Shown one piece after another: positions 9,634 to 44,135 of a stretch of 64,000 nucleotides of DNA (position 1 is its first letter; each line of letters opens with the position of its first letter). The notes under the pieces were generated by a model. It searched no databases, was not told the origin of the DNA, and was given only the letters and a program-made list of their open reading frames with translations. Both the position numbers and the translations under genes were made by a program. This DNA comes from Octopus vulgaris (taxonomy: Eukaryota): the NCBI GenBank assembly GCA_951406725.2, contig OX597825.1, forward strand, positions 9,858,001 to 9,922,000, given 5' to 3'.

Positions 9634-9667
<34 letters not shown>

Positions 9668-9737
9668 AGAATTTTTTGCGTAATAAGATAAAAAAAAACC
9701 AAGGCTGTATAGATATTAGAGTATTCACAGATAGAAG

Positions 9738-9789
9738 GTCTTACAGCTGTTTATAGGATATCAATTAATAATATCCTTTCATCGGAGAC
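9738..9789 (-). ncRNA. Degenerate type I hammerhead ribozyme
   Basis: GUCU-CCGAUGA-A-AGGAUAU-(9 nt)-AUAUCCU-A-UAAAC-AGCU-GUA-AGAC; all three stems present but U4>C and G12>U in the core. Confidence 0.6.
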
Positions 9790-10107
9790 GGTGTGAGAGG
9801 AAAAAATTAAGTCATAATTAGTTATATATATATATTTATAAACCAATGACTAACTGATGTGACGTAATGTGGTTAACGTTAGACAGGTCAAGATCACTCA
9901 AACAAACGCATCACTGCAATTGTAGGCAATGCGGCATCAGCTGGTTGATGCACAGATTTACAAATCTGTTTTTTGTTTGTTTGTTTATTTTTGTGGTTGT
10001 TTTTGTTTTGTTTTGTTTTTTGACAGGGAGAAGATAAAAACAAAAAAAAACAGAGGGAGAGAATAAAAAAGAAAGAACAAAAGTATCCTCGGAAAAGAGA
10101 TACTAAC

Positions 10108-10260
10108 TTGTTTTACCGACATGCTGCAACCCTGGGATCTTGTCTGTTCGTCCAAAGAATACATTCTCGGGTAACAAGTGAACAATTTTGAATAAAGCTT
10201 GATGGATGCTTATCGAACAAGTCAAGTAGCGCCCATTAATTGATTTTAAGTGTTCACAAT
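10108..10260 (-). CDS. NPHP4: NPHP4 coding exon 5 (153 nt)
   Basis: atttcAG acceptor, A|GTTAGT donor; ...IHQALFKIVHLLPENVFFGRTDKIPGL matches HPALEPAFHLLPEN...IPGL. Confidence 0.92.
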
Positions 10261-10837
10261 CTGAAATATAAAGAGTGACAAAAGAACACAATAATGATTT
10301 ACATGAATACAAAAACACAAATTTACATGGGTGAGGCAGAGCTGGATTGAATCAACCACAGTGTATTACTGACATTTATTTTGTTAATCTAAGAAAGTGG
10401 CAATAAAATAAGACAAAAATAATCCCAGCATGAGTTAAACAGACTAGAGAAAAGAAATCCCGCTCAGTAATGGTTCACGATGCTGCAATTTATGTTTAAC
10501 TGAAAAATGTCATATACAACAACAAACTGATAATGAACAAAAGCTAAAACTACAACCACCTCTGCTTGTGGACACAGAATTAAATTCCCCTGACATGTTT
10601 TTAACTTGTCTTTTGCTTCAACTACTCTGAAAGTATGCTGAAGTTCAATGAGTTTAAACTTCTGGCTACTAATGTAAAACAATACTATAGAAATAACTCG
10701 ATATATATTTTATGCTCTGTGAGACTCTCCCTGAGGGCATTTTCAGCACTTTGGTGCTTTACACAAAACAGTGTTTAACCATGCTGTTTACATAGAATAT
10801 ATTAGCAATTTTTCACTATTCATTTATCTATTATACA

Positions 10838-10884
<47 letters not shown>

Positions 10885-11864
10885 CATTATTATTATTATT
10901 ATTATTATTACTAGCAATCTGAATATAAAATCTTGAAGTTTCCAGTGTTTCATTGATTGAAAACTACATTAAAACTTTTAGATTGTTCAGCAAATAAACA
11001 GTTGAATATTTCCAACTTGCACATCTATTACGAACCTCTAAGCTGCTAAAACTCTCCAGTCACCAAGAAAATATATGGCTTCTCAACTGCAGTAATGGAA
11101 GCCAAATAAAAGAACTCCTGGATTCTCTGAACAATCCATTTGTTGCAGTTTATACAAGATGACAGTCTGTTCTGGGTTATGCCAGTAAGACTAACACTCT
11201 CGGTTCAATCACATCATCATCATCGTTTAACGTCCGTTCTCCATGCTAGCATGGGTTGGACGGTTCGACCGGGGATCTGGGAAGCCAGAAAGGCTGCACC
11301 AGGCTTCAGTCTGATCTGGCAGTGTTTCTACAGCTGGATGCCCTTCCTAACGCCAACCACTCCGTGAGTGTAGTGGGTGCTTTTTACGTGCCACCAGCAC
11401 AGGTGCCAGGCGAGGCTGGCATCGGCCACGATCAGATTGGTGGATGAAGTAAAAAAAAAAAAAAAATGTACAATACAACTTTGTAGAAATATCAGCTAAC
11501 AAGAATACACATGGTTATTGGAAAATCATTGTGGAAATCTCTAGGTGTCTGCTTGACCTGCTAGAAAATAATTTGTAGCCAGTTTATGAAGGACTATAGT
11601 AAGTAGTGAGATGAAGAATAACATTGTCAGGATGGGGGAGAAAAACTGCAATGGGTGGCTAGAAAACAACCATTGGGTGGGGGCTGAGACTAAGTACCAC
11701 AGTAAATGGTGGGATATTGAGAATTACCAAATCTATGCCAGCATCAATGAAACACAAAAGGTACAGCCATAAAGTATGGCCAAAAAATATACAATTTAGG
11801 TTTGTGTCAGTTTAACAGTGAGACAAGAATAGGAAAAGTTCATAACAAAATGCAAGCCATCATA

Positions 11865-12693
11865 TTTATTTCTTTATTGCCCACAGGGGGTGGCTAAACA
11901 TAGAGGGAATAAACAAGGACAAACAAAGGGATTAAGTTGATGATATCGACCCCAGTGCGTAACTGGTACTTATTTAATCAAACTTAAAAGGATGAAAGGC
12001 AAAGTCCACCTCGGCAGAATTTGAACTCAGAACATAACAGCAGACGAAATACCTATTTCTTTACTACCCACAAGGGGCTAAACACAGAAGGGACAAACAA
12101 GGACAGACAAACGGATTAAGTTGATTACATCGACCCCAGTGCGTAACTGGTACTTAATTTATTGACCCCGAAAGGATGAAAGGCAAAGTCGACCTCGGAA
12201 TTTGAACTCAGAATGTAACAGCAGACGAAATACCGCTAAGCATTTCACCTGGCGTGCAAACGATTCTGCCACTCGCCACCCTAATGCAAGCCATGATATT
12301 CTTTTCTACTTTTGGCACAATGCCTGAAATTTTGGGGGAGGGGCCAGCCAATCCAACTGACCCCAGTAGGCAACTAGTACTTAATTTATTGACCCCCAAA
12401 AGGATGAAGGGCAAAGTCGACCTCAGTGAAATTTGAACTCAGAACATAACAGCAGACAAAATACCTATTTCTTTACTGCCCACAAGGGGCTAAACATACA
12501 AGGGACAAACAAGGGCAGACAAACTGATTAAGTCAATTATATCGACCCCAGTGCGTAACTGGTACTTATTTAATTGACCCCGAAAGGATGAAAGGCAAAG
12601 TCGACCTCGGTGGAATTTGAACTCAGAACATAACAGCAGATGAAATACCACTAAGCATTTCACCCGGCGTGCTAACGATTCTGCCAGCTCGCC
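11865..12693 (-). mobile_element. Two dimeric SINE S2 copies
   Basis: 11865-12280 and 12297-12693, each with one head and two cores. Confidence 0.82.
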
Positions 12694-12818
12694 ATCCAAA
12701 TACAAGCCATTATATTAAACATCCACAAACCCTGGAAAAAGCCCTTGATCAGGTACTACACTCTGTGTATACATTCGCACACACTCACACACACACAAAT
12801 AGGTAGAAAATAACTTAC

Positions 12819-12877
12819 GTTCAATTGGCTCATCTATAAGAAGGAGCGCCCTGGGTGTACCTTTGTACAGCTGCACT
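12819..12877 (-). CDS. NPHP4: NPHP4 coding exon 4 (59 nt)
   Basis: ttcttgcAG acceptor, C|GTAAGT donor; VQLYKGTPRALLLIDEPIE contains the NPHP4 LYxGTPRALL motif; phases 2/1 fit both neighbours. Confidence 0.93.
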
Positions 12878-13111
12878 CTGCAAGAAATGAATACATCAGT
12901 GTCATTACCAGACCAGATTCTACTGCTATATATCTGGAATCCATTGCTTTATTCTACTTGTAGTTGATATCAATAGTTTAAACAAAAGATACAGCTTCAA
13001 AGGCACACAGGCTTCTGCTGCGTTTCACAGAAACAAAATTTCATCTTTACATGCGTCTATATGTGCATGTAACTGTGTACATGTATTTGTGTGTGCAAGT
13101 GTGTGTGTATA

Positions 13112-13489
13112 TCTTTATATATAAAAGTGAAGTTGTGTGTCTGTCTCCTACGATTTAGATTCCTAACAACTCCCACATTTTGCGGTGCAGTTTAACCAGT
13201 CGTGATTCATATCGAGCCCTTCTGGGTATTAGCGTATGTCTACAATGAGTCTACGATTTAAAAAAAAAATTTACCATCAATTTTTCCCATTTTTTAATGC
13301 ATTTTTGGCATATATAAGGGAAGTAACTCTCTAAAAATTTATTCTCAGAACGTAAAAAGCTACAGTAACACTCCCCCCCCCACCTTTGTGGTTAGCCATA
13401 TTGAGATGGCTATTATACTTTACATCTCTAAAAATGCTTATATAGTTATTTCCTTTACAAACCCGAGCAACACCGGGCGATACTGCTAG
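13112..13489 (+). mobile_element. Non-autonomous Helitron
   Basis: 5' TC, 3' CTAG with subterminal hairpin CCCGAGCAACACCGGG, inserted between A and T; second copy at 23105. Confidence 0.85.
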
Positions 13490-13579
13490 TATTTATATAA
13501 AAATAATAATAATAATGATAATAATAACAACATCCAAAAACACCTTAGGAATGAGAACCCAGGTTCGAAATTTCCCCGA

Positions 13580-13625
13580 GACACCTGATGAAGGCTGGAG
13601 GGTATATCAGCTGAAACGTTGTGTT
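13580..13625 (+). ncRNA. Minimal type I hammerhead ribozyme
   Basis: GACAC-CUGAUGA-A-GGCUG-(10 nt)-CAGCU-GAAAC-GUU-GUGUU; stem III reduced to palindrome AACGUU. Confidence 0.7.
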
Positions 13626-13656
13626 AACAACAAATAAGATGAGGACATATATGTCA

Positions 13657-13758
13657 AATGTAAATAATGTAAATAATGTAAATAATGTAAATAATGTAAA
13701 TAATGTAAATAATGTAAATAATGTAAATAATGTAAATAATGTAAATAATGTAGATAAT
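13657..13758. repeat. 9-bp tandem repeat (AATGTAAAT)n
   Basis: About 11 copies, directly downstream of the 13580 hammerhead. Confidence 0.9.
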
Positions 13759-14113
13759 TCCTCATCTCTCAAATATAGAACTGCAATGTTATAGATGATG
13801 ATACTTATGCACGTACACTCTACGTGTATCTACTCTGTAGTATTTGGTGGGGACCATGCAGTGCATGGGTGACCCTGATCGGGAGGTGTGGGCCTTCCTG
13901 CTAGGGTGGGTAGACTTCTGCTGGTCTACTGCCTAGGTGTCCCGAGTCAGCTAGTTTGATGCTGGCCTGGCTTAGTTAGGCTTCATTAGGTGTCGTGTTG
14001 CGTTGGTTCCCAGTGGGACTGTAGCGGATACTGGGTTCGACTCATCACAAGGGACAGGTGAACAGATTAACGGAGGGAAAGGGTAAATGAGAAAAAGAAG
14101 GAAGAGTTTTCAT

Positions 14114-14150
<37 letters not shown>

Positions 14151-14284
14151 AGGTATATGTGTGCGTGTAAGCACATGTGTGTGTGTGAGTAAAAGAGAAA
14201 GAGAGAAACAAATGTATAAAATCATTAAAAACTATATATACAAAAAGACAGACAAGACACAATACATAGAGACCGTTAAGTAAA

Positions 14285-14611
14285 GGAGAGAGAGACAGAG
14301 AGACAGACAGAGAGAGAGAGAGAAAGAGACAGAGAGACAGACAGAGAGAGACAGAGACAGAGAGACAGAGACAGAGAAAGACACAGAGATAAAGAGAGAC
14401 AGAGAGAGAGAGAGACAGAGAGAGACACATACATAGATAAAGAGAAAGACACACAGAAAGACACAGAGAGAGAGACACAGAGATAGAGAGAGAGACACAG
14501 AGAGAGACAGAGAGAGAGAGAACACAGAGAGAGACAGACAGACAGACAGAGAGATAGAGACAGAGAAAGACACAGAGAGAGAGAGACAGAGAGAGAGAGA
14601 CAGACAGAGAC

Positions 14612-14648
<37 letters not shown>

Positions 14649-15180
14649 CAGAGATAAAGAGAGACACAGAAAGACACACAGAGAGAGAGACACAGAGAGA
14701 GAAACACAGAGAGAGACAGACAGACAGAGAGAAGTGGAGAGGTTTGCAAAAGAGAAGAAAACCAATTTGACTCTGAAACAAAAGAGATGGAAAGTGAAAT
14801 GTAAACTTGTCCGCATCTGGCAAATGGGAAGACGAATGCCATAAGAGAAAGAGTTGGGGACTGATGCAGCCCTAAATGTCTACTTACTTCTTGAGAGGAC
14901 TGTGATCATCTCGCAAAGTGTTTGGGTGTTCGGCATCCACAGCAAAGGGTCTGATGACACCCCAACCGAGTGACCTTGTTTTGCTGACCCCGTCTGAATC
15001 TTTTAATTGGCCAACAAGCTCTGCAACAAGTACAACACTGGGCGCTTTCAAAGTGGTGTGCATGTAGACCACCTGAAGGGAGACAGCAGCAGAAGAAGAG
15101 AGAACAAGAGATATAAACCTGGAGAAATAAAATCAGGCTGAGAAGACAAATACATGGTTGTTGGTTTGTTTCATCCAGAC

Positions 15181-15213
<33 letters not shown>

Positions 15214-15550
15214 GACACAGAGAGAGACAGAGAGAGACAGACAGAGAGACAGAGACAAACAGACAGACAGACAGAGACACAGAGAGAGACAGAGAGACAG
15301 ACAGACAGAGAGACAGAGACAAACAGACAGACAGACAGACAGAGACACAGAGAGAGACAGAGAGAAAGAGAGACAGAGAGAGAGACAGAGAGAGACAGAC
15401 AGACAGACAAACAGAGAGACAGAGAGAGACAGAGAGACAGAGAGAAAGAGAGACAGAGAGAGAGACAGAGACAAACAGACAGAGACAGAGAGAGAGAGAG
15501 AGAGACAGAAAGAGAGAGACACATATAGAGAGAGACACACAGAGAGACAG
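14285..15550. repeat. (GA/GACA)n tracts on both sides of NPHP4 exon 3
   Basis: 14285-14730 and 15177-15550. Confidence 0.95.
14888..15072 (-). CDS. NPHP4: NPHP4 coding exon 3 (185 nt)
   Basis: cccttcAG acceptor, AA|GTAAGT donor; VVYMHTTLKAPSVVLVAELVGQLKDSDGVSKTRSLGWGVIRPF matches LYFHTSL...VVEVV...SCGFGILRIF. Confidence 0.92.
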
Positions 15551-15952
15551 AGTGGTGTGCATGTAGACCACCTGAAGGGAGACAACAGAAGAGAAAACAA
15601 GAGATAAAACCTGGAGAAATAAAATGAGGCTGAGAAGACAAACACGTGATTGTTGGTTTGTTTCATCCGATTCCTAGCGACGTTAGAAGGACCAGCATTT
15701 CAGAAAGGATGAAAATCCTATCACTCTCATCCAGCACAGAAATTTCGTGTTATCCATTTCCTTATTCCCACCTTGATCAGAGGAAATGAGCTTATTTTGG
15801 TATACCTAGTTCCTTTCTCATGCATTCTACCCACCCACCCACTACACACAATGAACAACAGGCAACACAATACCAACATGATTGCATTGAAGGGCACAGA
15901 AAGTAAATTTAAACCCTTATAGCCACAGGAGTGGCTGTGTGGTAAGTAGCTT

Positions 15953-16366
15953 TTCTATCACAAGGGATGGGCTGTCAAGGGATTCTTGGACAGTCTTCTC
16001 CACCGACAAAGTTACGACTCAGTCTGCATTGACTGTCCAAGTTGGTCATGGTAACCTTTGGAAAAGAAGAATTTGCTTTTCTCTTTCCGGGCTCTGACCT
16101 GCCGATGCAGGCTTTCCTGCAGGTGGCAGGGAACTTATGCGGGGCTCAGATGAGAAAGAGGAAGATTAAGAAAAATTTTGTAACTTTTGTGATTTTTTTT
16201 AGTAAAATTGAATAAAAGAACAGTGATTTCGATGGGTTTATCGGTCGGTGGATGCCGGTGCCCCTCCCATTTGTGTTCATCATTATCATCCTCATCTCAT
16301 TAATGTCTTTGTCCAGCCCGCAGCTACATATCTGTATACGGCTTTCATGGCCAATTTGATGAATAA
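15953..16366 (+). mobile_element. LINE-like 3' fragment nested in a SINE
   Basis: 9-bp TSD AAGTAGCTT (15944-15952, 16367-16375); ends in AATAAA; host SINE resumes after it. Confidence 0.6.
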
Positions 16367-16777
16367 AAGTAGCTTGCTTACAAACCACATGGTTCTGGGT
16401 TCAGTCCTACTGCGGGGCACTTTGGGCAAGTGTCTTCCACTATAGCCTCGGGCCGACCGAAGCCTTGTGAGTGGATTTGACAGATGGAAACTGAAAGAAG
16501 CCTGTTGTATATATATATGTATGTATGTATGTGTGTGTATATGTTTGTGTGTCTGTGTTTGTCACCCCAACATCGTTTGACAACCGAGATGCTGGTGTGA
16601 TTATGTCCCCATAACTTAGCAGTTTGGCAAAAGTGAGCAACAGAATAAGTACTAGGCTTACAAAGAATAAGTCCTGGGGTCGATTTGCTCGACTAAAAGG
16701 CAGTGCTCCAGCATGGCCGCAGTCAAATGGCTGAAACAAGTAAAAAAGAGTAAAAGAGTATGTGATAGGTGATTCAC

Positions 16778-16921
16778 CTCATTGAATTGAAGAGTTGTAC
16801 TTTTTCCTCTGCCAGTGGAACCGGTGACGCTTGGACTCTGCCACTGGCAACCAAAGTAACAATGGTAAACAGCATCATAAAGACTGACGTACAATTGGTA
16901 GACTTCTTTGGATTGGGAAAC
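16778..16921 (-). CDS. NPHP4: NPHP4 coding exon 2 (144 nt)
   Basis: ttttccAG acceptor, GAG|GTGAAT donor; VSQSKEVYQLYVSLYDAVYHCYFGCQWQSPSVTGSTGRGKSTTLQFNE matches the NPHP4 segment LRVSFFD..YRHFFGRTW...FNE. Confidence 0.9.
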
Positions 16922-16999
16922 CTGGAAAAGAAAAGGGGAAAAGGTTCAATAGTGGGAAATGATAGGTCGTTGTTCTTGATACAAGTGTTTAGGGGGTTT

Positions 17000-17470
17000 T
17001 AGGAAGGAAGGAAGAAAGAAAGAAACAAACAAACAAACAAAGAAGGAAGGAAAAAAGAAAGAAAGAATAAAAGGAAGGAAGGAAGAACGAACGAAAGAAA
17101 GAACAAATGAAAGAAAGAAAGAAAGAAAGAAAGAAGGAAAGGAAGGGAGGAAGGAAGAGGGATAGAGAAAGGAATAAAGGAAGAGTGAAAGGAAAGAAGG
17201 AAGGAAGGAAGGAAGAAAGAAAGGAAGGAAGAATGAAAGGAAAGAAGGAAGGAAGAAAGAAAGAAAGGAAGGAAGAATGAAAGGAAAGAAGGAAGGAAGG
17301 AAGGAAGGAAGAAAGAACAAATGAAAGAAAGAAAGAAAGAAAGAAAAAAGGAAGGAAGAAAGAAGGAAAGGAGAGAAGGAAAGAAGGAAGGAAAGAAAGA
17401 AAAAAAGAAAGAAAGAAAGAAGGAAAGGAGAGAATGAAGGAGAGAAAGAAAGAAAGAAAAGAAAGAAAAA
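17000..17470. repeat. (GAAA/GGAA)n purine tract
   Basis: Tetranucleotide low complexity. Confidence 0.95.
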
Positions 17471-17572
17471 ATTGGCCACCAGAATCAACAAAATGGGGGC
17501 GGAGTTTCTTAATGGAGCATTTTACAGCTTGTTGATTGATCTTCAGAAACTCAATACATGGGAACTGTATGA

Positions 17573-17611
<39 letters not shown>

Positions 17612-19309: not shown

Positions 19310-19323
19310 GTTGCTATGACAAC
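19310..19323. promoter_or_regulatory. RFX X-box match GTTGCTATGACAAC in NPHP4 intron 1
   Basis: Exact fit to GTHNYY-AT-RRNAAC; host is a ciliary gene; function untested. Confidence 0.35.
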
Positions 19324-22552: not shown

Positions 22553-23104
22553 ACCAGCTCAAGAACATAACTGGTATTTCCTTTATCGATTCTCAAAGGA
22601 TGAAAGGTAAAGGTGACCCCAGAAGGATTTGAACCCAGAACAATGAGAACCTGAACAAATAACACAAATATTCAATACTCCAGTGAGTTTGGCAATTGGC
22701 CAAAATATTTGAACGATTAACCTCATTTTTTCCCATTCCCTAGGTTTATCCTTTATCAAAACAATACAAACAGTAATAAAGATAATAGAATCCAATCGTG
22801 TCTGGGCCAGCGTTACCTTCCGGACCTCGAAAAGTTGAGAAGTTGCAGCAAAACCATATTTATATAGGAAAAAAAAAAAGCTTCTCCTCTATAGTAAAAT
22901 TTTGTTGTATACCCAATTGAATATTAGCCATTTTCTATAGCGATGTTTGATCAAAAATTTTAATAATTTTATATTTTGTTGAATTCACCTGTATTTACCT
23001 GTATCTATCTACCTGCAATTAGAGTCACTTTGTGACAAAAATTATAGTATAGAATTGGTTGAGAACATTTCATTAAATTATCTTCCAAAAATCACATTAA
23101 TATA

Positions 23105-23398
23105 TCTTTATATATAAAAGTGAAGTTGTGTGTCTGTCTCCTACGATTTAGATTCCTAACTACTCCCACATTTTGCGGTGCAGTTTAACCAAAGGTATCT
23201 TGTAGTCGTGATTCATATCGAGCCCTTCTGGGTATTAGCGCGCGTCTACGATGAGTCAACGATTAAAAAAAAAATTTACCATAATTTTTTTCCATTTTTA
23301 ATGCATTTTTTGCTATTATATGAGGGAAGTAACTCTCTAAAAATGCTTATATAGTTATTTCCCTTACAAACCCGACCAACGCCGGGCGATACTGCTAG
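23105..23398 (+). mobile_element. Non-autonomous Helitron, second copy
   Basis: Same TC...hairpin...CTAG structure with an internal deletion relative to the 13112 copy. Confidence 0.85.
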
Positions 23399-23564
23399 TT
23401 GATAAATAAAAAAGTTATAGTTGTTTAATGAAACCAGACTAAATTTATGATTATGTTAGAAATTAATTGAAACACACAAGGGGTGTATTTTGGTCAGAAA
23501 TATAGTAAGGAAAGGGTTAAAAAAAGGTTTTCAACCAATGGAAGAAGAAAAGACAGTCACATAC

Positions 23565-25333: not shown

Positions 25334-26578
25334 CAGGTCATCTTATAAGTTCTGTCCAATTTTACCTTTTTTTTATAAATTGAATGAAATTTAATAGCAT
25401 TTTAGAATGTCTAATGGAATTTTAAATTATTTTTATGCATGTGTACATTTAAACTAATTAAATATCATTTTACAGAATAATAGAATTAAAATTTTTTGAT
25501 TAAAACCCTTTCCAACATGGAAGTATCCAAAGAGCATTTGAGGTACATAATGCTTTATGAGTACAAAAAAGGAAACTCTGCAGCCGAAGCGACTCGAAAC
25601 ATACACTCAGTTTATGGGAAAGAATGCTTGAATGAAAGAACTTGCAGAAGATGGTTTGCAAAATTCAGAAGTGGAGATTTCAGCCTTGAAGATGAAGATT
25701 GAACAGGACGTCCAGTTGAGTTTGATGATAAGCTCCTTGAGGCATTACTTGAAGAAAATCCTGCATTATCAGTTGAAGAATTAGCAATAAAGCTTACTTC
25801 AAACCATACAACTTGGAAACTTTCCTAAACTTGGAAAATAGGTGCCTCATGAATTGTCCAAAAGCAACCACAAATCCCGAGTTGTCATCTGCTCTTCTCT
25901 CCATTCTCGCAAACTCATTTCACCCTTTTTGGATAGACTTGTGACTGGTGACGAAAAATGGATCTTCTATTGAAATGTTAAACGTTGTAAACAGAGCCTT
26001 GGAAAAAAGGGAAAAAGCTCAACTACAACCAAGAAGGGAACTTTATGGGAAAAAGGTTCTTCTCTCTATCTGGTGGGATTGCAAAGGAGTAATTCACTTT
26101 GAATTGTTACCACCTAATACAACAACCAATGCTCAAGTCTACTCTCAGCAATTAGAGTGTTTGAAGCAAGCTTTGAAGAAAAAAAGACCTGCTTTAGGGA
26201 ATCAGAAAGAAGTGATGTTTCACCAGGACAATGCAAAGGTCACATCACAGAAGATTGAAAAGCTTGGTTGGGAAAAAATTCCTCATCTACCTTATTCTCC
26301 CGACCTTGCTCCTTCAGACTACCATTTGTTTCGTAGTTTACAGAATCATTTGGGTGACATAACTTTCACAAGCCAGGAGGAGGTCGAAACTGACATTTCA
26401 GAGTTCTTCACTTTGAAACCAAAAGAGTTTTACATTGATGGGGTTAAAAAGTTTGTAAATAGATGGAAGGAAGTCATAGATAATCAGGGAAAGGACATTG
26501 ATGATTAAATTCCAGTTAAATATAACATTTGATTACTTGTTTTCTTTATTCAAAATTCGGACAGAACTTATGGGATGA

Positions 26579-26629: not shown

Positions 26630-27250
26630 CCAGCTGCAGAGAATCTATCTCGACAAATTCATTCCGACCCATACAGAAAGCGATCGTTAAAATGATGGTG
26701 ATGATGATAATAATAATAATACTATATGTATGTGTGTATATCTTTTCCCCGCCTTTTACGTGTTCCAGTTATTGGACAACGGTCATGCAGGGGCACCACC
26801 TTGATGGGTTTTATTCGAACAAATATATATATATATATGCCACTCCGTCAGTTACGATGATGAGGGTTCCAGATGATCTGATCAACGGAACAGCCTGCTT
26901 GCGAAATTAACATGCAAGTGGCTGAGCACTCCACAGACACATATACCCTTAACATAGTTCTCAGGGAGATTCAGCGTGACATGGTGTGTGACAAGTGGGC
27001 CCTTTGAAATACAGGTACAACAGAAATAGGAAGAAAGAGGGAGAGAAAGTTGTGGTGAAAGAGTACAGCAGGGTTCGCCACCACCCACTGCCGAAGCCTC
27101 GTGGAGCTTTAGGTGTTTTCTCTCAATAAATACTCACAACAATGCTGGGTCTGGGAATCAAAACCGCGATCCCATGACCGTGAGTCTGCTGCCCTAACCA
27201 TTGAGCCATTGCACCTCCACATACATATGTATATATATATATATATATAT

Positions 27251-27719
27251 AAATTAAATTAGAGACAAAACCACTATTATGCAAATCAAACAATGAAATT
27301 AATTTATATTATTTAGATATGTAACAAATATTAAAAAATATAATTAATATCCACTACGATCTTCAAATTGTTAATTTTTTATATTGTATAAGCCTTAGGA
27401 GTAATAATATTCTCCTTATGTAAATATTGTTGTTTATGTAATGATCTAATTATCGTAATTTTCTATGTTATTAGATATTAAATAATTTAGATAAACTTTG
27501 ATAAAATTAGATATGTTTCTACTAAAGATGGTCTAGGCCATGTCTAATTTATTAGCATAATTTATATTAGATAATTATTCCCATTCATAATTATGTTTAT
27601 AGTACTTATAGTATTTATTTAATACTATATTACTAAGAATGAAATATTTCTATAAGTATTTTACATAAGATTTCGAAAGTCAGTTTACCTCTATTATGTA
27701 TTGTAGTATGATTATGGAC

Positions 27720-27755
<36 letters not shown>

Positions 27756-27811
27756 TTATAATTTATGTGGATGTGTGTGTTTGTATATATGTGTATTTGA
27801 TGATGTGTGTG

Positions 27812-27850
<39 letters not shown>

Positions 27851-28735
27851 GTATATGCATTTATTTATTTGTATGTGTGTGGGTGTGTATATATTGGTGT
27901 AAGTGTATATATTGAGTGTGCATATGTGTATGGGTGTAAGTGTGTGTGTATATATGTATGTATATATGTATATGAATGTATGTGAGTATGTATGTGTATA
28001 TGTGTATGTATATGTATATGTATGTATATGTGTATATGTGTATATATGTATATGTACATGTATATGTATGGATATTTTCTTATATATTTATGTATACGTA
28101 TGTATGGTTATTTTGAAATTAGCTATTTCATCTTTAAATATGAGAAATTAAATATATTAGGTTTTCATTATATACAATTGTTTATAGAGATTATTTTAGA
28201 TCTTGATTATAATATTTATATATATTTTCATTGATAATTTATATATATCAGTCATTTTAAATATCTATATAATTAGATATAGAATAATATGGATATTAGA
28301 ATATGGATTTTCTACCTTATAAGTTAAAGTTAATATTTAACATTATAGTCGATTTCGATATAATCATATTTAATAATTGAGTTTATTATAAGTAAATTAT
28401 TATTTTAGATTATATAGATTATTTATATCTTAAAAATATTGCTTATATTTTAGATTTTGAAATCACCTGATGAATGTCTGCTACTCAATAATTTGATGAC
28501 AGAAGACAGGAAACGACCGTAGTGGATATTAATTATATTTTTTAATATTTGTTACATATCTAAATAATATAAATTAATTTATGTATTGGCTTAAGTCTTT
28601 CATTGTTTGATTTGCATAATAGTGGTTTTGTCTCTAATTTAATTTAATATAATATAATATTTTACTATAAAATTGGATTCAATCCTAAATCTGATTTTTC
28701 CCTGTAAGTTTGGATTTATTCCCTAATATTTATTA
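27251..28735 (+). mobile_element. Non-autonomous Penelope/retrozyme-like element with inverted terminal repeat and hammerhead
   Basis: 27251-27361 is the reverse complement of 28515-28645 (one ~20-nt indel); hammerhead at 28463; AT-rich interior with no RT ORF; (TA)n on both flanks. Confidence 0.6.
28463..28525 (+). ncRNA. Minimal type I hammerhead ribozyme
   Basis: UCAC-CUGAUGA-A-UGUCU...AGACA-G-GAAAC-GACC-GUA-GUGG; core intact, A.G mismatch at base of stem II. Confidence 0.62.
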
Positions 28736-34397: not shown

Positions 34398-34428
<31 letters not shown>

Positions 34429-35895: not shown

Positions 35896-35939
<44 letters not shown>

Positions 35940-36152: not shown

Positions 36153-36345
36153 TATACAACAGAGAACTTTGAATGCTGAAGGGTTAATGAAAAAGTGATT
36201 GAGGAAAATTATTGTTTCACTGTAATCAGTGCAACCTGCAATGTGACTGAAGATTGAAGATATGATAAAAATTAGTTAGCAGAATGTTATTGTCATTCAG
36301 TTGAGTCAAAGAATTCAACAGGAATACTTAGGAATGCAATATTCC

Positions 36346-36457
36346 TAAAAATGTTTGTGTTTAAATGTGAGATATAACAAGAAAAATTCAAATACATATA
36401 TATTTATGTATTTGAATTTTTCTTGTTATATATCACATTTAAACACAAACATTTTTA
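36346..36457. repeat. 112-bp near-perfect AT-rich palindrome
   Basis: ~53-bp arms with one mismatch and a 6-nt loop. Confidence 0.9.
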
Positions 36458-36916
36458 TTCTGATGTTTAATTTTATATCTTGCATTCTGTAGTTGACATA
36501 TACTTGATTTTACAGTTTGTATGACATGCAGAGATGGGATTTACCAACTCTAAAAGACAAGGATACTAGTATACCATGAATTATACCAGAGCTATATGAA
36601 ACCCTAATTTCTCTCTGACAAACTACAATAAACAAAGCAACATGCTCTTAGCACCATCTCATGTTGCATACGGATTTCATTCACCTATACAACGAAAGTG
36701 AAACCGTAGCTATGGCCGTTGCCAGTGTCATGTAAATGGTACCCGTGCCAGTGGCATGCAAAAAAAACACCCATTACACTCTCAGGGCGGTTGGTGTCAG
36801 GAATTGCATCCAGTCATAGAAACCATGTCAAATCAGAATGGAAACTGGTGCAGCTCTCCCACTTACCAGTTCCAGTCGAGCCGTCTAACCCATGCCAGCA
36901 TAGAAAGTGGACGTTA

Positions 36917-36947
<31 letters not shown>

Positions 36948-37775
36948 CATGGAGAACGTACGTGCATAGTATTCCAGAACAAACTTCAAGCCGCATGATA
37001 CCGGCCACTACATATACAGTCGCTTCATAAACATATCTAGACACATCTTCTACCCTCCAAATAAACGTACACATCAAAAAGTAACGGCATCGATAACCTC
37101 ATTAGTTCTAAACACTGTCGGGATACACCAGCAATGATAAAATGAACATTAAACATTACACTCTAGCGAAGCCCACCTCTCTGTTTATATAGTGGTCTCC
37201 ACGAGAACATACAGAAAACGAGGGTATCCTGCATGCAATACGTTTGAAAAGAGGCAATAGCTACGGCAGGGGCCCCTGTTGTTGTCAGCTCGATCAGTAC
37301 TGAACTGAGGCTAATCAACAATAACATTAATAATACGATAATTGGCCAACATGTCAAACAGTCCCATGACAACTCATGAAAAACTAGTACTCGTAGGCGT
37401 GTACGGTTTGGTTTCGCTTCAGTCAGAGGCATTTGCAACGATGGATCTGTGGATCAAACTCGTTCGACCAACAATTTGTGTCGTAGTTATGGTCGATCGA
37501 GGTTGGCCTGGGATGCAACAACACTTAATAATTAGGTCTCATCATTTTGGAGTCAATAAATCAAGTCAAAATAACACAACGGATTTGTATTAATCAGTTG
37601 AAACTCCTGTTATTACAGGACGAACCTGTTGCTAGAGAAAAGAAATTATTTCACACAATACTTAATGTCAAAGTATCTGGCTGATCGCAAGAGAGGTTTT
37701 TTTCTAATCCAATCTCTCCATCTTTTTTTTATTATTATTATTTCTCATTGAGTGCGTAGTGAAATCAGATCTTAC

Positions 37776-37901
37776 CGTGACACCATCAGAGGTTTTAAAA
37801 CAAATCTTGAAAGGAGTAGAGAGCTTCTGTGCGGTTGAAAGTCTTTCGTTTGGCGGTTGGACTATCGGTTTCGGTACCCAATGCGTATTAGGACCCGCCA
37901 T
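37776..37901 (-). CDS. NPHP4: NPHP4 (nephrocystin-4) first coding exon, distal variant 1A
   Basis: AAAAATGGCG start; 42 codons MAGPNTHWVPKPIVQPPNERLSTAQKLSTPFKICFKTSDGVT, resembling the NPHP4 N-terminus as recalled (PPHPQR...ESTAFQCVLKWLDG); phase-0 donor ACG|GTAAGA. Confidence 0.8.
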
Positions 37902-37920
37902 TTTTGGTCACGTGATGTAA
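37890..37920. promoter_or_regulatory. Putative bidirectional promoter core for NPHP4/PIGP
   Basis: Locally CpG-richer region; YY1-type CGCCATTTT overlapping the NPHP4 ATG, directly followed by E-box GGTCACGTGAT; divergent gene arrangement. Confidence 0.45.
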
Positions 37921-39948
37921 ACTAAACCGTTACTAGTGTGATCTGTGAAATGCCTACATCCATGGTCGTGTGTGGTGCTTGTGCAAATAAACCGAATTCT
38001 AGCGTTGTACGTGTTTATAAGCTGTAGATCTGTGTTCGATACCATGTGTCACATGTATAAGTGAACTTAGATCTTTATATTTTATCTTTGTGTGAATTTT
38101 ACGTTGAATGTTTGAAGTTATAAATGTACAAATATTGCACTTCCAGAAAAATTTTTATGTCCCTGTTAGATGATTGCATATATATGATATAAGTATATAT
38201 ACGTAAGTAAATGTGTGCGTATATTCATTCGCAAGTGCGTATTCATCAGCTAAAGACTTTAAATGCTTGTTTCTGTTGCTTTTGTATATAACAACAACGG
38301 TGAATAGCAACAGATGCTAGAAGCGATATGGGAGGTAACTCTAACGGGACTTTGGGATTTCAAAAACAAAAAAAATGTCATTCTGTGTCTCTTTTAAGAT
38401 AGCCTACCTAATGCATTATGATAAGCCTATGTTATCTCTTTATATTCTTCCCGGATCTATTTGATCTTCTTACGTTTTTTCTTTTTCGGGTGGCTGCAGT
38501 GGTGAACCTGGAGGGCTTGAGTTGGGGCGGTTCCCGTTCAAGTAACCTATTTCTTTACTACCCACAAGGGGCTAAACACAGAGGGGACACACAAGGACAG
38601 ACAAACGGATTAAGTCGATTATATCGACCCCAGTGCGTAACTGGTACTTATTTAATCGACCCCGAAAGGATGAAAGGCAAAGTCAACCTCGGCGGAATAT
38701 GAACTTAGAAAGGTAGCGGCAGACGAAATACGGCTACGCATTTCGCCCACTATGCTAACATTTCTGCCAGCTAGCTCGCCTTCTAATGCATTATAATAAA
38801 CCTATATTATCTCTTTATATTCATAGAAGTCACAAGCTAAACACTTGATGTGGCCAAACAAATTGTAGGGGTTTGCATTTAACTTTACTAAATGTAGGGT
38901 CATTTCTCGTAGAATTAGTATTTTGATAACCAGTTAAATGCTTAGTAGAAATAAATCTCTTATGGTTTTGAAATACTTTAATTGTTGAAGTTGTTTTTCA
39001 GACCAGGTTATGCAGTTTAATCCATACGTCAATAACGGGACAATCTAAATGTTATATATACATAAGCTGAAAATTTATTGGAGGCTTTATCGTAATTATT
39101 TCAATTTGTTTTGAACAAACAATCGAATAAAATATAGATGTACTCAATAAAAAAAATTATAAAAAGAAAACAAATGTTTACGTATTTAAAAAATATGAGA
39201 GAAAAGTAAATTTTTGCATTAAAAAGTTAAGGGGAAAGAACTCTGTATTTTTGACGATTTCAGCGAAGAGGCCTTCATCATAGAGACAAAAATCCATTCC
39301 ATTAGCGACCAACGAGGGCCCTCGATGAATTTCGATCTTTTGAAGGCTTCTTCAATGGTGTGTAGACACACACACAGCCAACAGGTGGACTCGCACACCT
39401 GCCGAGTGGTATCAAAGGCGATCTCCACTACGATGGGAAGACGATTTAGTTAAGTGATTTGGGTCAGGATGAAAAAGAACGACGCAATCAAGACAGAAGT
39501 GGAAGCGCACTGTGACCAGCGATGTACAACGGCACCTGATGTCTAATTAATACTGTGATGTGTGCGCGTGTTTCTTTGAGTTTGTGTCTGTTCCCACCAC
39601 CCTCACAGCTTGACAACTGGTGCTGGTTCGATTACGCCCCCGTAACTTAGCGGTTCGGCAAAAGATGTTGATAGAATTAATACCAAACTTAACAACAAGA
39701 TCAGAACTGGTATAGATTTATCCGACTAAATTCTTCAAGACGGTTCCCCAGCATGTCTGCACTCTAATAACAGAATCAAGTAAAAAAAAAAAAAAATCCA
39801 ATTTGTTCGCTGGAAGTCCCTGTGTGACAGTGGTCATTGGGCTAGACTCTTCTCTTCTATTGAATAGTTTTGTTTACTCAAAATATTTCTTGCGTCCAGA
39901 CTTTTAGGTGAGATTATTTATTATTTAACGGGATTCAAGCTTTTCTTT

Positions 39949-39980
<32 letters not shown>

Positions 39981-41176
39981 AACTTTATTTGTCTCTCAGA
40001 TCAGTTGATGTGAAAGAAAATAGTAATCATTATAAACGAAAGGAAACATTTCAAGCCAGAAACCCATCCCCAATGTTGTATATATTTCTTTACTACCCAC
40101 AAGGGGCTAAACACAGAGGGGACAAATAAGGACAGACAAAGGGATTAAGTCGATTACATCGACCCCAGTACGAAACTGGTACTTTATTTATTGATCCCGG
40201 AAGGATGAAAGGCAAAGTCGACCTCGGCGGAATTTGAACTCAGAACGTAAAGACAGACGAAATGCTGCCAAGCATTTCGCCGCCCCAATGTTGTATTATG
40301 TTGATCACGAATTGTAATAAGCTTACTTTATTAGCTTTACAGATTATTAGAAACCGGCGATCCTTCGGTATATGTACCTGATGTGGCTTTGTTTACATTT
40401 CTGAAGATAACAGAAACCCTTTTCTCTCACCCCTAACACAAACCCCCCATATATATATTAAAAAAAAAACACTTTCTTGAAATGTATCGGGTACTTCCGG
40501 TACCTATACCGAAGTTACGCCTAAAATACTCTTTGAATGATTCAACTTGAACAGGGAGGGAGTGAACAAGAGTTCTTGTTTGTTGTCATATAAAAAAAAA
40601 AGGGTAAAAAGCCCCTTCAGCCATGACTGACCATGGAATTGCACCTAGGTTACCCTCCGAGGCACAAGTCTGTGCAAGGTTGTTTATGGAAGACCAACAG
40701 TTACCCATGCATACAAGACTCTCCTCTCCACACCACTGATGTCATCCAAGGGAAAGGCAAAGAGACCGATACAGCTTGGCACCAGTGATGTCGCAACTCA
40801 TTTCTACAGCTGAGTGAACTGGAGCAACGTTAAGTAAAGAGTCTTGCTCAAGAAAATTGTTATAATAATTTTAATATCAGTCTATTCGTACTTGGATAGA
40901 TCTGGAGTATGTTATCATGACACTCCTTTATAGGGTTGCTAGTCTGAGTTACAAGTAGCACATCTAGTTTCAATCCTAGTTAACAGAAAATTGTTCTGAT
41001 TCAATTATCTCTTAGTTTATTAAAATCTGTTAATTTTATCAATTTGTAATTTTATAACTGAAAGACTTTTTTTCCTTTTTCTGATTGAAGCAAAATTGTC
41101 CGTGATGGTTCTCATCTTAATTCTTTATGCTCCCACAGTTTTTATTTCATTTTGTAGGCGATGTCATATTTATACC

Positions 41177-41264
41177 ATGACTAAACCAGAACACACACCT
41201 TTCCCATCGCCTGAAAGAGCTATATATGGATTTGCTCTCTATCTGGGTTCTTTCATCTGTATTG
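41177..41264 (+). CDS. PIGP: PIGP (GPI-GlcNAc transferase subunit P) first coding exon
   Basis: MTKPEHTPFPSPERAIYGFALYL, with the PIG-P PxPERAIYGF motif; acceptor at 41157, G|GTGAGT donor; implies an upstream non-coding exon. Confidence 0.93.
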
Positions 41265-41901
41265 GTGAGTCTACTTCCATTTTGCAAACAGGCTAATTGT
41301 CTGTTTCTTTACTAATTACAATCTGGCTTCCAGTTTATTATTGTGTATATTGAGTATCAGACAAACTGTCTTGTGCTAGTTACATTCCATTACATTCTGG
41401 GTTCAAATCTTGATGAGATCATCTTTGTCTTGTTTGTTGTCATATAAAAAAAAGGGGTAAAAAGCCCCTTCAGCCATGAATGACCATAAGATTGCCCCTA
41501 GAAAGTTACCCTCTGAGACATAGACACTTTCCTTCTCCTCCTATACAGTGGGGGATGTGTTCAAACACATAAACTGAAAGAGAGAGGGTGGAAGGAGGGA
41601 GGAAAAGAAAGGGTGAGAGAATGGAGGAGGGAGGTGAGGAAAGAGAAAGTGGTGAAGAGAGAGAGAGAGAGAGAGAACAAGACAAACTTTAAAACATCTG
41701 ATGTCAAATAAGTCAGCATCGACTCATCAGTGCCAAAACATCTCTTACACCAAAACGTTGATGTGTCATAAGTTTGCTGTGATGAATGAAAGGCCGGTTC
41801 CCACTTTGTGTTGCACAGATATAAGCCCTGAATATGTTTCCTCAAAGAAACCTTGTGTGGTCCCTTATACAATCTGAGTTTATATATTTCTCTATTTTCA
41901 G

Positions 41902-41974
41902 TCCTTTACATCGGCTGGGCCTTTATTCCCGACAGTTACCTCCATTCTGCAGGATTAACGTATTATCCCCAAAA
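41902..41974 (+). CDS. PIGP: PIGP coding exon 2 (73 nt)
   Basis: ttttcAG / AA|GTAAGT; LYIGWAFIPDSYLHSAGLTYYPQK. Confidence 0.95.
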
Positions 41975-42282
41975 GTAAGTACTGTTGATGGATTTGTATT
42001 TGTGTTCTTATAAGCAATGTCAGTTCCTGGTTAAAATGGCTCCCCTCACCTGAGATTCTGTTTCTACCTACAACCAGTCTTAAGCAAGTTACGTGTACAT
42101 CACAACTTCCACTTTACATTGAAGATAGTAAAGCTTATCAAATGACACTGAATTTCTTACTCTTTCAACAAATACTTGTTTGCTGTGCTAATGTGTTTAT
42201 CGCTTGAAGAATTGCACTGGTATGAGACTTGACACAAGAGACAAACTCTCAGTTTCATTTTCAATATATATATACATATGCT

Positions 42283-42599
42283 GAGAACCCCTTCGGTCAT
42301 GACTGACTGTGGCATTGCACCTAGAAAGTTACCCTCCCAGGCACAAGTCCGGGCAAGGTTGTTTATGGAAGACCAGCAGTCGCCCATGCATACCAGCTTC
42401 CCCTCTCTTTGCCGCCAGTGTTATCCAAGGGAAAGGCAGATACAGCTTGGCACCAGTGACATCGCAACTCATTTCTACAGCTGAGTGAACTGGAGCAACA
42501 TGAAATAAAGTGTCTTGCTCAAGAACACAACATGCAGCCCGGTCCGGGATTCCAACTCACAACCGTAAGCTTGACGCTCTAACCACTATGCCATGTGCC
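42283..42599 (-). mobile_element. tRNA-derived SINE family S5; other copies 9080-9415 and 40610-40852
   Basis: Head GGCACATGGCATAGTGGTTAGAGCG; core GTGTTCTTGAGCAAGACACTTTATTTCA. Confidence 0.75.
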
Positions 42600-42600
42600 T

Positions 42601-42650
<50 letters not shown>

Positions 42651-43006
42651 CATATATATATACATATATATATACATATATATATACATATATATATACA
42701 TATATATATATATATGCATATATATATATGCATATATATATATGTATATATATATATGTGGCTGTGTGGTAAGAAGCTTGCTTCCCGACCACATAATTCT
42801 GGGTTCAGTCCCAATCCTTTATGAACTCCTAGTCCTGAGCTATGGTTAATCATTCATGAAAATATCATTTTCGTCCATGATCAACTTTACGATTTTTTCT
42901 GATGAGATTGGAGGGTAATCAATCTTTTTCCTGCTCAACAGTTTTAGAAAAATAAATCTTAACGTATTACTGTTTCATGATGTATTTTTATTTTTCTTCT
43001 TTCAAG

Positions 43007-43125
43007 GTACTGGGCTGTTGCAATTCCTGCCTATATCATAATGATCGTTCTTCTTGGCTATTTAGCATATTTTGCCTTTGTTTTTATAAGCACAGAAAAC
43101 TTAGACTCCCTCAATACCATCACCG
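43007..43125 (+). CDS. PIGP: PIGP coding exon 3 (119 nt)
   Basis: ttctttcaAG / G|GTAAGA; YWAVAIPAYIIMIVLLGYLAYFAFVFISTENLDSLNTIT (second TM helix). Confidence 0.95.
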
Positions 43126-43685
43126 GTAAGAAATACTTCATTAATACAAATAATTAATCAAGTCTTGTTTTGTCAAGTTTGTCTCCAGGGTGAAAGTTTC
43201 TGTAGTTTGTATGCTGTCATTAGTGTTGTACAATGATCAAAGCCCTGATCATCATCATCGTTTAACGTCTGCTTTCCATGCTGGCATGAGTTGGACGGTT
43301 TGACTGAGGACTGGCGAGCCAGATGGCTGCACCAGTCTCCAATCTGATCTGGCGAAGTTTCTACAGCTGGATGCCCTTCAAAGTCAACCACTCCGAGAGT
43401 GTAGTGGGTGTTTTTTTACGTGCCACCGGCACGAGGGCCAGTTCTGGCTACGACCACACTCAAAAGGTGCATGGGATCCAGTCCAGCCGCACTGGCAACG
43501 ACCATGCTTAAACGATGATTTTCACGTGCCGGTAGGCGACACTGGTAACAATCATGCTTGAATGATGCTTTTCATGTGTCACCAGCACGGGAGCCAATCT
43601 GTGGCCCTGGCAACGATCACGCTCGGATGTGCTTTCAACATTCCACTGGCATGAGTGCCAATACATATTGGCTTTTAACTCCGAT

Positions 43686-43714
<29 letters not shown>

Positions 43715-43717
<3 letters not shown>

Positions 43718-44135
43718 CGTAAATATAAGAGAGTGACCACTATGTGGTCGACTCTAACACTAAAAATAGATCTGCTACGGTTTCAACCACGAAGAATTGT
43801 TTCCGATGAAAGTTATCACAACTATTAGCATAAACGAACAGGGCAAATAAAAAATAACAAAAATGCAGATTAATTCTGGACAATTGTTTCGCTATTAATA
43901 AATTATGTAATTTTACTCACATAACATATCTGTAGCTCCTCAGCAGAATTTGTCTAGAGTACAATTTACTCAACCGCATCTATTTTTAGTGCTAGAGTCG
44001 ACCACATAGTGGTCACTATCTTATATTTACGTATAAACTTTATTGTATTCCTGGTTTTTATGCACTAAGCCACTTGGTGTTAAATTGATGGTACTATTAA
44101 ATTAGTATCCAATTTTCTCACCCTTATTAGTTGAT
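43715..44135 (-). mobile_element. Short Penelope/retrozyme-like element with 57-bp inverted repeats and hammerhead
   Basis: 43715-43771 inverted at 43978-44034; hammerhead between them; (TA)n flanks. Confidence 0.6.
43872..43950 (-). ncRNA. Type I hammerhead ribozyme, intact core
   Basis: Minus strand: AAUUCUG-CUGAGGA-GCUA...UAGC-GAAAC-AAUU-GUC-CAGAAUU; 7-bp stem I, 4-bp closing stem II, minimal palindromic stem III, GUC cleavage triplet. Confidence 0.8.

What the first reader, a model, noticed from the sequence alone, without database searches (positions are those of the whole stretch)
9661..44135. Four distinct hammerhead-ribozyme-carrying, microsatellite-associated non-coding elements (retrozyme/Penelope-like system)
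Seen: four sequences unrelated outside the core (9738-9789 -, 13580-13625 +, 28463-28525 +, 43872-43950 -) each pair by eye as a type I hammerhead (stem I - CUGANGA - stem II - GAAAC - tiny stem III - GUH - stem I). Stem III loops are palindromic (AGCU, CG, GAUC/GACC, AAUU). All lie in short ORF-less elements next to (TA)n or (AAT)n, and two have an inverted copy of the sequence 3' of the ribozyme. Known: minimal type I hammerheads with palindromic stem III occur in the pLTRs of Penelope-like elements and in retrozymes, and are thought to cleave as dimers. Inference: this genome hosts several non-autonomous ribozyme retroelement families at high density (4 in 64 kb); I do not know whether these families have been described in cephalopods.
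Basis: partly seen in the sequence, partly recalled or inferred. Interest (0 to 1): 0.8.

Follow-up and report, generated by a model that had tools for sequence, protein, structure and literature searches.

The report
Penelope-element hammerhead ribozymes in octopus
Four different short repeats in this octopus DNA carry the sequence pattern of the self-cutting hammerhead RNA (three with an intact core, one decayed) and are most likely the broken-off ends of Penelope-type jumping genes, a known arrangement already recorded in another octopus element.

Summary
The observation largely holds. Three sites (13580 +, 28463 +, 43872 -) have an intact type I hammerhead core: 3 found against a mean of 0.03 in 200 shuffles, and 43872 reaches Rfam's Hammerhead_1 cut-off. 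The fourth (9738 -) is decayed (U4C, G12U), but G12 is restored in about 99% of contig depth from other copies in two public runs, so it is a relic of a real multi-copy family. The host is an Octopus of the sinensis/vulgaris group. Two elements show the Penelope-like element (PLE) insertion signature: an adjacent inverted 5'-truncated copy, a tail on one arm only, and (TA)n flanks. No RT or GIY-YIG lies in the window and none of the elements is tandem, so they are most likely truncated 3' ends of several PLE families, not retrozymes. The density is unremarkable: 3.7% of the window, against 6.83% PLE DNA in 190 families reported for O. vulgaris. A hammerhead in an octopus PLE (Hydra-1_oBim) is already published. 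I did not find these four families in the sources I could search. This scan noted the same kind in sharks and other animals. Cleavage, circles and the autonomous partner are untested.

The parts
9665..9825 (-). Element E1, about 160 bp between two (TA)n tracts; a 5'-truncated copy of a multi-copy family
   Evidence: 355 and 324 contigs from two runs laid, depth concentrated on 9650-9859 and zero on 9860-10339; loose ends show other copies running on upstream of 9801
9738..9789 (-). H1, decayed hammerhead (U4C at 9784, G12U at 9753); 7-bp stem II 9755-9761/9771-9777; unpaired A (9778) opposite A (9754); palindromic ACAGCUGU; GUA site after 9742
   Evidence: 9753 reads as G12 in 6718.8 of 6757.4 depth (39 contigs) and 62942.9 of 63166.9 (34 contigs)
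13515..13790 (+). Element E2, after an (AAT)n tract; ends in a hairpin that encloses 11 copies of a 9-bp unit (13657-13758)
   Evidence: a second copy is inferred from the N-terminus of O. sinensis protein P0001
13580..13625 (+). H2, minimal hammerhead: intact core, extra A after A9, 6-bp stem II with G-U at its base, no loop III, N17 = U, site after 13620
27250..27361 (-). Inverted 5'-truncated copy of the E3 3' end; starts inside stem III (GAUC), 7 nt before the predicted cleavage site, and ends in (TA)n
   Evidence: identical to the main copy except the loop base and a 20-nt indel
27362..28733 (+). Element E3 main copy (left boundary inferred from the inversion junction): about 1.1 kb of 15-22% GC ORF-less DNA including a microsatellite (27721-28105), then H3, a 3' segment and a tail of about 85 nt (28647-28733) absent from the inverted copy, then (TA)n
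28463..28525 (+). H3: intact core, unpaired A opposite G above the core, 5-bp stem II with an upper hairpin, loop GACC, GUA site after 28521
43715..43977 (-). Element E4 main copy, ending in (TA)n; lies antisense in the last intron of the host PIG-P gene (exon 43007-43125, next exon from 44242)
43872..43950 (-). H4: intact type I hammerhead, long stem II, palindromic ACAAUUGU, GUC site after 43879
   Evidence: (RF00163, 34.7 bits)
43978..44135 (+). Inverted 5'-truncated copy of the E4 3' end (55 of 57 nt identical to 43715-43771) plus a tail of about 100 nt absent from the main copy, ending in (TA)n

Best explanation
The four motifs are hammerhead sequences in four unrelated short repeats, most likely the 5'-truncated 3' ends (pseudo-LTR fragments) left by four different Penelope-like retroelement families of Octopus. 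Shown: three intact cores and one decayed core, self-complementary stem III segments, (TA)n or (AAT)n flanks, and in E3 and E4 an adjacent inverted partial copy with a tail on one arm only; E1 is multi-copy and its family keeps G12. Inferred from PLE biology: an RT/GIY-YIG protein encoded elsewhere nicks AT-rich microsatellite DNA and primes reverse transcription at two nearby internal sites near the RNA 3' end. That would give two arms of different 3' length in opposite orientation; early termination would leave only the hammerhead-bearing end. In the source elements the hammerheads would fold as stem-III-swapped dimers in tandem transcripts and cleave weakly or with protein help. The solitary copies here are probably inert, except possibly H4. 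All four main copies, and even the E3 inverted copy, keep sequence 5' of the predicted cleavage site, so the template was likely uncleaved RNA.
For: Descriptor 3 vs 0.03 expected. RF00163 hit for H4. Stem III segments of H1, H2 and H4 are perfect palindromes, with predicted dimer duplexes of -11.1, -1.7 and -6.4 kcal/mol, as described for PLE min-HHRs together with the extra nucleotide after A9 (PMC4209133). Inverted 5'-truncated copy, one-sided tail and (TA)n bias are described PLE hallmarks (PMC8557442), and the tail is explained by two internal RT start sites (PMC11167929); both are seen in E3 and E4. Hydra-clade PLE hammerheads lie within about 200 nt of the 3' end, often have an unpaired base on both sides of stem II, and include an Octopus bimaculoides element. 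E1 family: G12 restored in about 99% of depth; in the stem II region all six listed substitutions fall in the loop (9762-9770) and none in the paired arms; loose ends show G-C instead of A-U at the base of stem II in some copies, and copies that extend further 5'. E2 family: the P0001 translation differs at the free N7 position (Asp to Glu) and implies C11.1 (Leu to Pro) (inferred from amino acids only). Host: neugrin 99% identical to O. sinensis and 88% to O. bimaculoides. O. vulgaris has 190 PLE families, 31 recently active, whose 336 young insertions cover 1.83 Mb.
Against: No RT or GIY-YIG domain in 195 of 264 candidate reading frames scanned, and no link of any of the four elements to an autonomous ORF was shown. 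None of six motifs from the four elements occurs in the published Naiad/Chlamys/Hydra consensus set (exact match, 70-letter lines), and the Hydra-1_oBim hammerhead has a different sequence. E3 has about 1.1 kb of ORF-less DNA upstream of its hammerhead, long for a PLE 3' UTR (about 150 nt in Hydra-1_oBim). The tails here (about 85 and 100 nt) are longer than the 30-40 bp described. Copy number was tested only for E1; E2 has one inferred further copy; E3 and E4 have only their own inverted arms. U4 in the E1 family is unresolved.
Confidence: 0.65

Rival explanations
1. Some or all of the families are dedicated non-autonomous elements (dispersed monomers of non-LTR retrozymes) that never carry an ORF, are released by hammerhead cleavage from tandem source loci, possibly as circular RNA, and borrow a PLE RT/endonuclease.
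For: No ORF in any of the four; about 1.1 kb of non-coding body in E3; E1, E2 and E4 are in the 150-450 bp range given for metazoan retrozymes (PMC7229834). Vertebrate retrozymes derive from pLTRs and often occur as monomers (bioRxiv 10.64898/2026.07.22.740005).
Against: No tandem hammerhead-bearing units in the window and no head-to-tail joint across the E1 hammerhead among the contigs laid (contigs drop rare forms). E1 copies extend 5' of this copy. Inversion with a one-sided tail is the signature of PLE-type priming, not of rolling-circle arrays.
Confidence: 0.27
2. E4 (and perhaps E3) is a MITE-like DNA transposon with terminal inverted repeats that captured a hammerhead.
For: 57-nt arms, 96% identical, flank H4, and the site is (TA)n.
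Against: One arm is not terminal: it runs on for about 100 nt before the (TA)n. The same asymmetry is seen in E3, where the inverted arm begins inside the ribozyme itself.
Confidence: 0.05
3. The motifs are chance matches in AT-rich repeats.
For: Rfam does not detect H1-H3; H2 and H3 do not fold as hammerheads in the minimum-energy monomer structure (z -0.63 and -1.61); the descriptor was tuned after seeing the sites.
Against: 3 vs 0.03 expected; H4 above the Rfam cut-off; other E1 copies restore G12 and vary in loop II rather than the stem.
Confidence: 0.03

Closest known systems
Minimal hammerheads (min-HHR) in the pLTRs of metazoan Penelope-like elements (Cervera and De la Pena 2014, PMC4209133)
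   Same: Type I topology, tiny palindromic stem III, extra nucleotide after A9 (H1-H3), several sequence families in one genome, mostly solitary truncated copies.
   Different: H1 and H3 lack the G10.1-C11.1 pair and have a purine opposite a purine there; H4 has no extra nucleotide and an unusually long stem II; no linked ORF shown here.
Hydra-clade PLEs, including Hydra-1_oBim of Octopus bimaculoides (Craig et al. 2021, PMC8557442, Files S1 and S2)
   Same: Hammerhead near the 3' end, (TA)n targets, inverted 5'-truncated copies, often an unpaired base on both sides of stem II, octopus host.
   Different: Different sequences; the listed mismatch above the core is mostly U opposite U, not A opposite A/G; tails here are longer; the clade cannot be assigned without the ORF.
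Non-LTR retrozymes of animals (Cervera and De la Pena 2020, PMC7229834; bioRxiv 10.64898/2026.07.22.740005)
   Same: Short, AT-rich, ORF-less, type I hammerhead.
   Different: No tandem units each with a ribozyme in the window; circular RNA not tested.

Membership tests
Type I hammerhead ribozyme | Core C3 U4 G5 A6 N7 G8 A9 / G12 A13 A14, A15.1-U16.1, H17, stem I closing the ends - sites H2, H3, H4 | tested here: met
Type I hammerhead ribozyme | Same core - site H1 in this copy | tested here: not met
   U4C and G12U. Other copies restore G12; U4 unresolved. U4C is a known low-activity natural variant (PMC3088659).
Type I hammerhead ribozyme | Base pair 10.1-11.1 next to the core | tested here: inconclusive
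   G-C in H4; G-U after one extra A in H2; A opposite A or G in H1 and H3. Comparable mismatches are listed for Hydra PLE hammerheads.
Type I hammerhead ribozyme | Rfam RF00163 gathering score | tested here: inconclusive
   met by 1 of 4 (H4, 34.7 vs 34 bits); no hammerhead hit for H1-H3
Type I hammerhead ribozyme | Self-cleavage 3' of N17 | not testable with these tools
   needs in vitro transcription
PLE min-HHR | Palindromic 15.2-16.2 and loop III allowing dimer formation | tested here: met
   H1, H2, H4 perfect; H3 broken in the main copy but GAUC in its inverted copy
Penelope-like element (EN+) | RT + GIY-YIG ORF joined to the hammerhead-bearing end | tested here: inconclusive
   none in the window, as expected of truncated copies; no genome held to look at other copies
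Penelope-like element (EN+) | Inverted 5'-truncated copy adjacent to the 5' end, with a tail at one end only | tested here: met
   2 of 4 elements (E3, E4); tails about 85 and 100 nt rather than 30-40
Penelope-like element (EN+) | Insertion into microsatellites, (TA)n in the Neptune/Hydra/Naiad types | tested here: met
   E1, E3, E4 in (TA)n; E2 after (AAT)n
Penelope-like element (EN+) | Dispersed multi-copy family | tested here: inconclusive
   met for E1; one further copy inferred for E2; not tested for E3 and E4
Non-LTR retrozyme | Tandem units each carrying a hammerhead | tested here: not met
   none in the window; the rest of the genome could not be searched
Non-LTR retrozyme | Abundant circular RNA monomers | not testable with these tools
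   no raw RNA reads were offered

The most novel reading that the evidence does not exclude
E3 and E1 are dedicated ORF-less Penelope parasites of octopus whose hammerheads use a conserved purine-purine apposition (A opposite A or G) in place of the 10.1-11.1 base pair, extending the stack of sheared G-A pairs, and still self-cleave as dimers to release small circular RNAs; H4, with its long stem II, is an active ribozyme sitting antisense in a housekeeping-gene intron.
Probability: 0.15. Interest if true: 0.5.

Novelty: new member of a known kind. Interest (0 to 1): 0.27.

Why it matters
Modestly. It adds four octopus repeat families to the known set of Penelope-type hammerheads, and it shows that an RNA-motif scan can classify short octopus repeats that Rfam mostly misses (1 of 4 detected); 15% of the O. 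vulgaris genome is still unclassified repeat. Two details could interest a specialist: an A-purine apposition above the core shared by two unrelated families, which standard descriptors reject, and an inverted copy that starts inside stem III upstream of the cleavage site, in line with uncleaved RNA being the insertion template. It opens no new mechanism.

Tried and rejected
No genome is held for this window, so there was no genome-wide copy count or partner search. Whole-window Rfam search: 111 hits, none to a hammerhead, nearly all microsatellite artefacts. Exact-pattern scans found nothing in metagenome contigs or genome contigs; these are mostly prokaryotic collections, so the blanks say nothing. 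The single viral-contig hit (L001) has unrelated flanks and no hammerhead and was rejected as a chance 20-mer. Raw-read runs X22 and X23 gave no test (0 and 9 reads laid, the latter only on TA tracts). No RNA holder is on record; X15 is only guessed to be RNA, so I draw no conclusion on expression. Summed contig depth is no copy number and I do not use it as one. The joints listed for X19 join the two TA tracts and were set aside as microsatellite artefacts or empty sites. Position 9784 (U4) and 9777 were not listed as variable, but they lie near contig ends where the tool lists nothing, and the loose ends show both states, so U4 is left open. A protein search with the E4 reading frame found nothing. 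Extra descriptor hits at 52558, 2223 and 63925 have weak stems or core changes and were rejected. A 13-of-14 match between the E1 core and the opposite strand of E4 has no stem III or GUH and was rejected. Pfam scan: 195 of 264 candidate frames were scanned; the 69 left out mostly overlap the window's high-copy SINE-like repeats. Naiad_Obim, Naiad_Ovul and Hydra-1_Obim as source elements: not matched. Look-ups of this scan's earlier notes by place and by sequence gave nothing.
Full report
Host and setting. The window is octopus DNA: the neugrin frame at 60040-61104 is 99% identical to an Octopus sinensis protein and 88% to O. bimaculoides. No whole genome is held. The window is rich in microsatellites and interspersed repeats, some with more than 20 self-matches. 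It holds PIG-P, a sybindin-family exon, neugrin and a mariner remnant.

Check of the observation. H4 (43872-43950 -) has a 7-bp stem I, CUGAGGA, G10.1-C11.1, a long interrupted stem II and GAAAC-AAUU-GUC; it reaches the Rfam RF00163 cut-off in a local search (34.7 vs 34 bits, E 2.5e-07) and folds better than 199 of 200 shuffles. H2 (13580-13625 +) is a minimal hammerhead with an extra A after A9, G-U at the base of stem II, no loop III and N17 = U. H3 (28463-28525 +) has an intact core with an unpaired A opposite G above it and the loop GACC. H1 (9738-9789 -) departs from what was reported: it reads CCGAUGA and UAAAC, so U4 and G12 are both changed. Rfam found no hammerhead at H1, H2 or H3, nor anywhere in the whole-window search. 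An intact-core descriptor that allows the extra base finds H2, H3 and H4 and nothing else, against a mean of 0.03 in 200 local shuffles; an H1-like descriptor finds H1 and H2 against 0.015. Both descriptors were set after I had seen the sites, so these figures are somewhat flattered. The four elements share nothing outside the core beyond short or AT-repeat matches.

Are they families? I could lay public sequence on one stretch only and chose E1, the weakest site. Of 4 runs, two raw-read runs gave no test. The two contig sets (X15, guessed RNA, organism label A; X19, DNA, label E) laid 355 and 324 contigs, with depth on 9650-9859 and none on 9860-10339. At 9753 the letter that gives G12 holds 6718.8 of 6757.4 and 62942.9 of 63166.9 of the depth (39 and 34 contigs). 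In the stem II region all six listed substitutions and a 3-nt deletion fall in the loop, 9762-9770, and none in the paired arms, although the tool hides differences near contig ends, which may affect the 9771-9785 side. Loose ends show copies with G-C in place of A-U at the base of stem II, with G rather than A just before G12, and copies that run on 5' of 9801. U4 is unresolved. E1 is thus a decayed, 5'-truncated copy of a real multi-copy hammerhead family, present under two organism labels. For E2, the only hit among 3 candidates was an O. sinensis gene model (P0001) whose first 28 residues match at 89%; two of the three differences fall at N7 and at 11.1, where proline implies C and so a G10.1-C11.1 pair. 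This is inferred from amino acids. Copy number of E3 and E4 was not tested.

Anatomy. E3 and E4 each have an inverted partial copy of their own 3' end on the 5' side. In E3 the inverted copy (27250-27361) is identical to the main copy but for the loop base and a 20-nt indel; it starts at GAUC inside stem III, 7 nt before the predicted cleavage site, and stops in (TA)n about 85 nt before the main copy does. In E4 the arms are 55 of 57 identical and it is the inverted arm that carries about 100 extra nt. E4 lies antisense in the last PIG-P intron (GT at 43126, AG before 44242). Between the E3 junction and H3 lie about 1.1 kb of 15-22% GC DNA without an ORF. No RT or GIY-YIG domain was found in 195 of 264 candidate frames of 55 aa or more. 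No element is tandem.

Mechanism. Established for PLEs: hammerheads sit in the terminal repeats, have palindromic stem III and an extra base after A9, occur as many families per genome, mostly as solitary truncated copies, and cleave poorly and only as dimers (PMC4209133; parts 1-2 of 4 of the text read; review PMC6765202, passages). Insertions are 5'-truncated, often with an adjacent inverted copy and a 30-40 bp tail at one end, and favour (TA)n (PMC8557442; passages, outline and section 11). The tail reflects two internal RT start sites; in that element the hammerhead needs the protein to cleave and uncleaved RNA is the main template (PMC11167929; passages). The window's elements fit each of these points. 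I infer that they are 3'-end fragments laid down by PLE-type target-primed reverse transcription from uncleaved RNA (0.65). The main rival is dedicated non-autonomous elements (0.27); E3's long non-coding body is its best support. The two readings are close: a 2026 preprint derives animal retrozymes from pLTRs and found cleavage in 1 of 9 dimers tested (bioRxiv 10.64898/2026.07.22.740005; parts 1-3 of 5 read; its supplements are closed). Retrozymes proper are tandem (PMC7229834; passages), which is not met in this window.

What is already known in cephalopods. File S2 of PMC8557442 lists a hammerhead about 100 nt from the 3' end of Hydra-1_oBim from O. bimaculoides, a (TA)n-inserting PLE, and many Hydra-clade hammerheads with an unpaired base on both sides of stem II, mostly U opposite U (supplement part 2 of 59 read; searches). 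The giant squid genome paper counts 235 Hammerhead_1 loci (PMC6962438; passages). In O. vulgaris PLEs cover 6.83% of the genome in 190 families, and 31 families are recently active (PMC13282606; passages and the whole supplement); the words hammerhead and ribozyme do not occur in that paper or its supplement, nor in PMC8967140 (passages). The four elements span 2,356 bp, 3.7% of the window, so four families in 64 kb is what that load predicts. Literature searches turned up no description of these four families, and six motifs from them are absent from the PMC8557442 supplement. The O. vulgaris consensus library, Repbase and Dfam could not be seen and may well hold them as Penelope or unknown repeats. 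U4C is a natural low-activity variant, and a mismatch at 10.1-11.1 is a standard ground for rejecting a hit (PMC3088659; passages). A 2017 RNA Biology paper on dimer-cleaving PLE hammerhead variants is recalled, not seen, and may already cover the A-purine form.

Earlier notes of this scan. Notes on shark and other vertebrate windows report the same kind of finding. They are unchecked AI notes; they agree with my reading and did not change it.

Verdict. The catch is real and was a good one by eye, with one site overstated. It is a new member of a known kind. Interest 0.27. The most novel reading left open, active ORF-less parasites with a purine-purine hammerhead variant, I put at 0.15.

Noticed in passing
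P0001 (O. sinensis LOC115224785 isoform X2), residues 1-35; window 13551-13634: A copy of the E2 family supplies the start codon and first residues of an annotated O. sinensis membrane-protein gene model (cysteine-rich, only weak Pfam hits). It may be an exonised hammerhead-bearing repeat in a 5' exon or an annotation artefact.
   Followed up: partly
window 13639-13790 +: Just 3' of H2 an ATG opens a short frame through 11 copies of a 9-bp unit, enclosed by an inverted repeat (13637-13655 / 13750-13767); possibly the start of the source element's ORF or its RT-priming hairpin.
   Followed up: no
window 13108-13490 and 23101-23400: Two copies of a non-coding repeat beginning TC and ending in a GC hairpin plus CTAGT; looks like a non-autonomous Helitron (label recalled). 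The first abuts E2.
   Followed up: no
window 36350-36453 and 57902-58091: A near-perfect 100-bp hairpin and a 37-bp inverted repeat pair with an internal palindrome; MITE-like.
   Followed up: no
window 25490-26505 +: Broken mariner/Mos1-type transposase (Pfam HTH_48 and Transposase_1).
   Followed up: no
window 41177-44370 +, 51273-54000 -, 60040-61104 +: Host genes PIG-P, a sybindin-family trafficking gene (TRAPPC4-like, name recalled) and neugrin.
   Followed up: partly
window 51617-51910 - and 61401-61721 -: Frames that resemble the C-terminal ends of LINE ORF2 proteins (resemblance recalled; no Pfam hit).
   Followed up: no
runs X22 and X23 laid on window 9650-10549: Two 2026 raw-read runs with the same species label as the best holder show no read of the multi-copy E1 family in 1.9 Gb each; a wrong label, another organism in the sample, or the read filter.
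   Followed up: no
window 28580-28599: A 20-nt segment is present in the E3 main copy but not in its otherwise identical inverted arm, so it was gained or lost during or soon after insertion.
   Followed up: no
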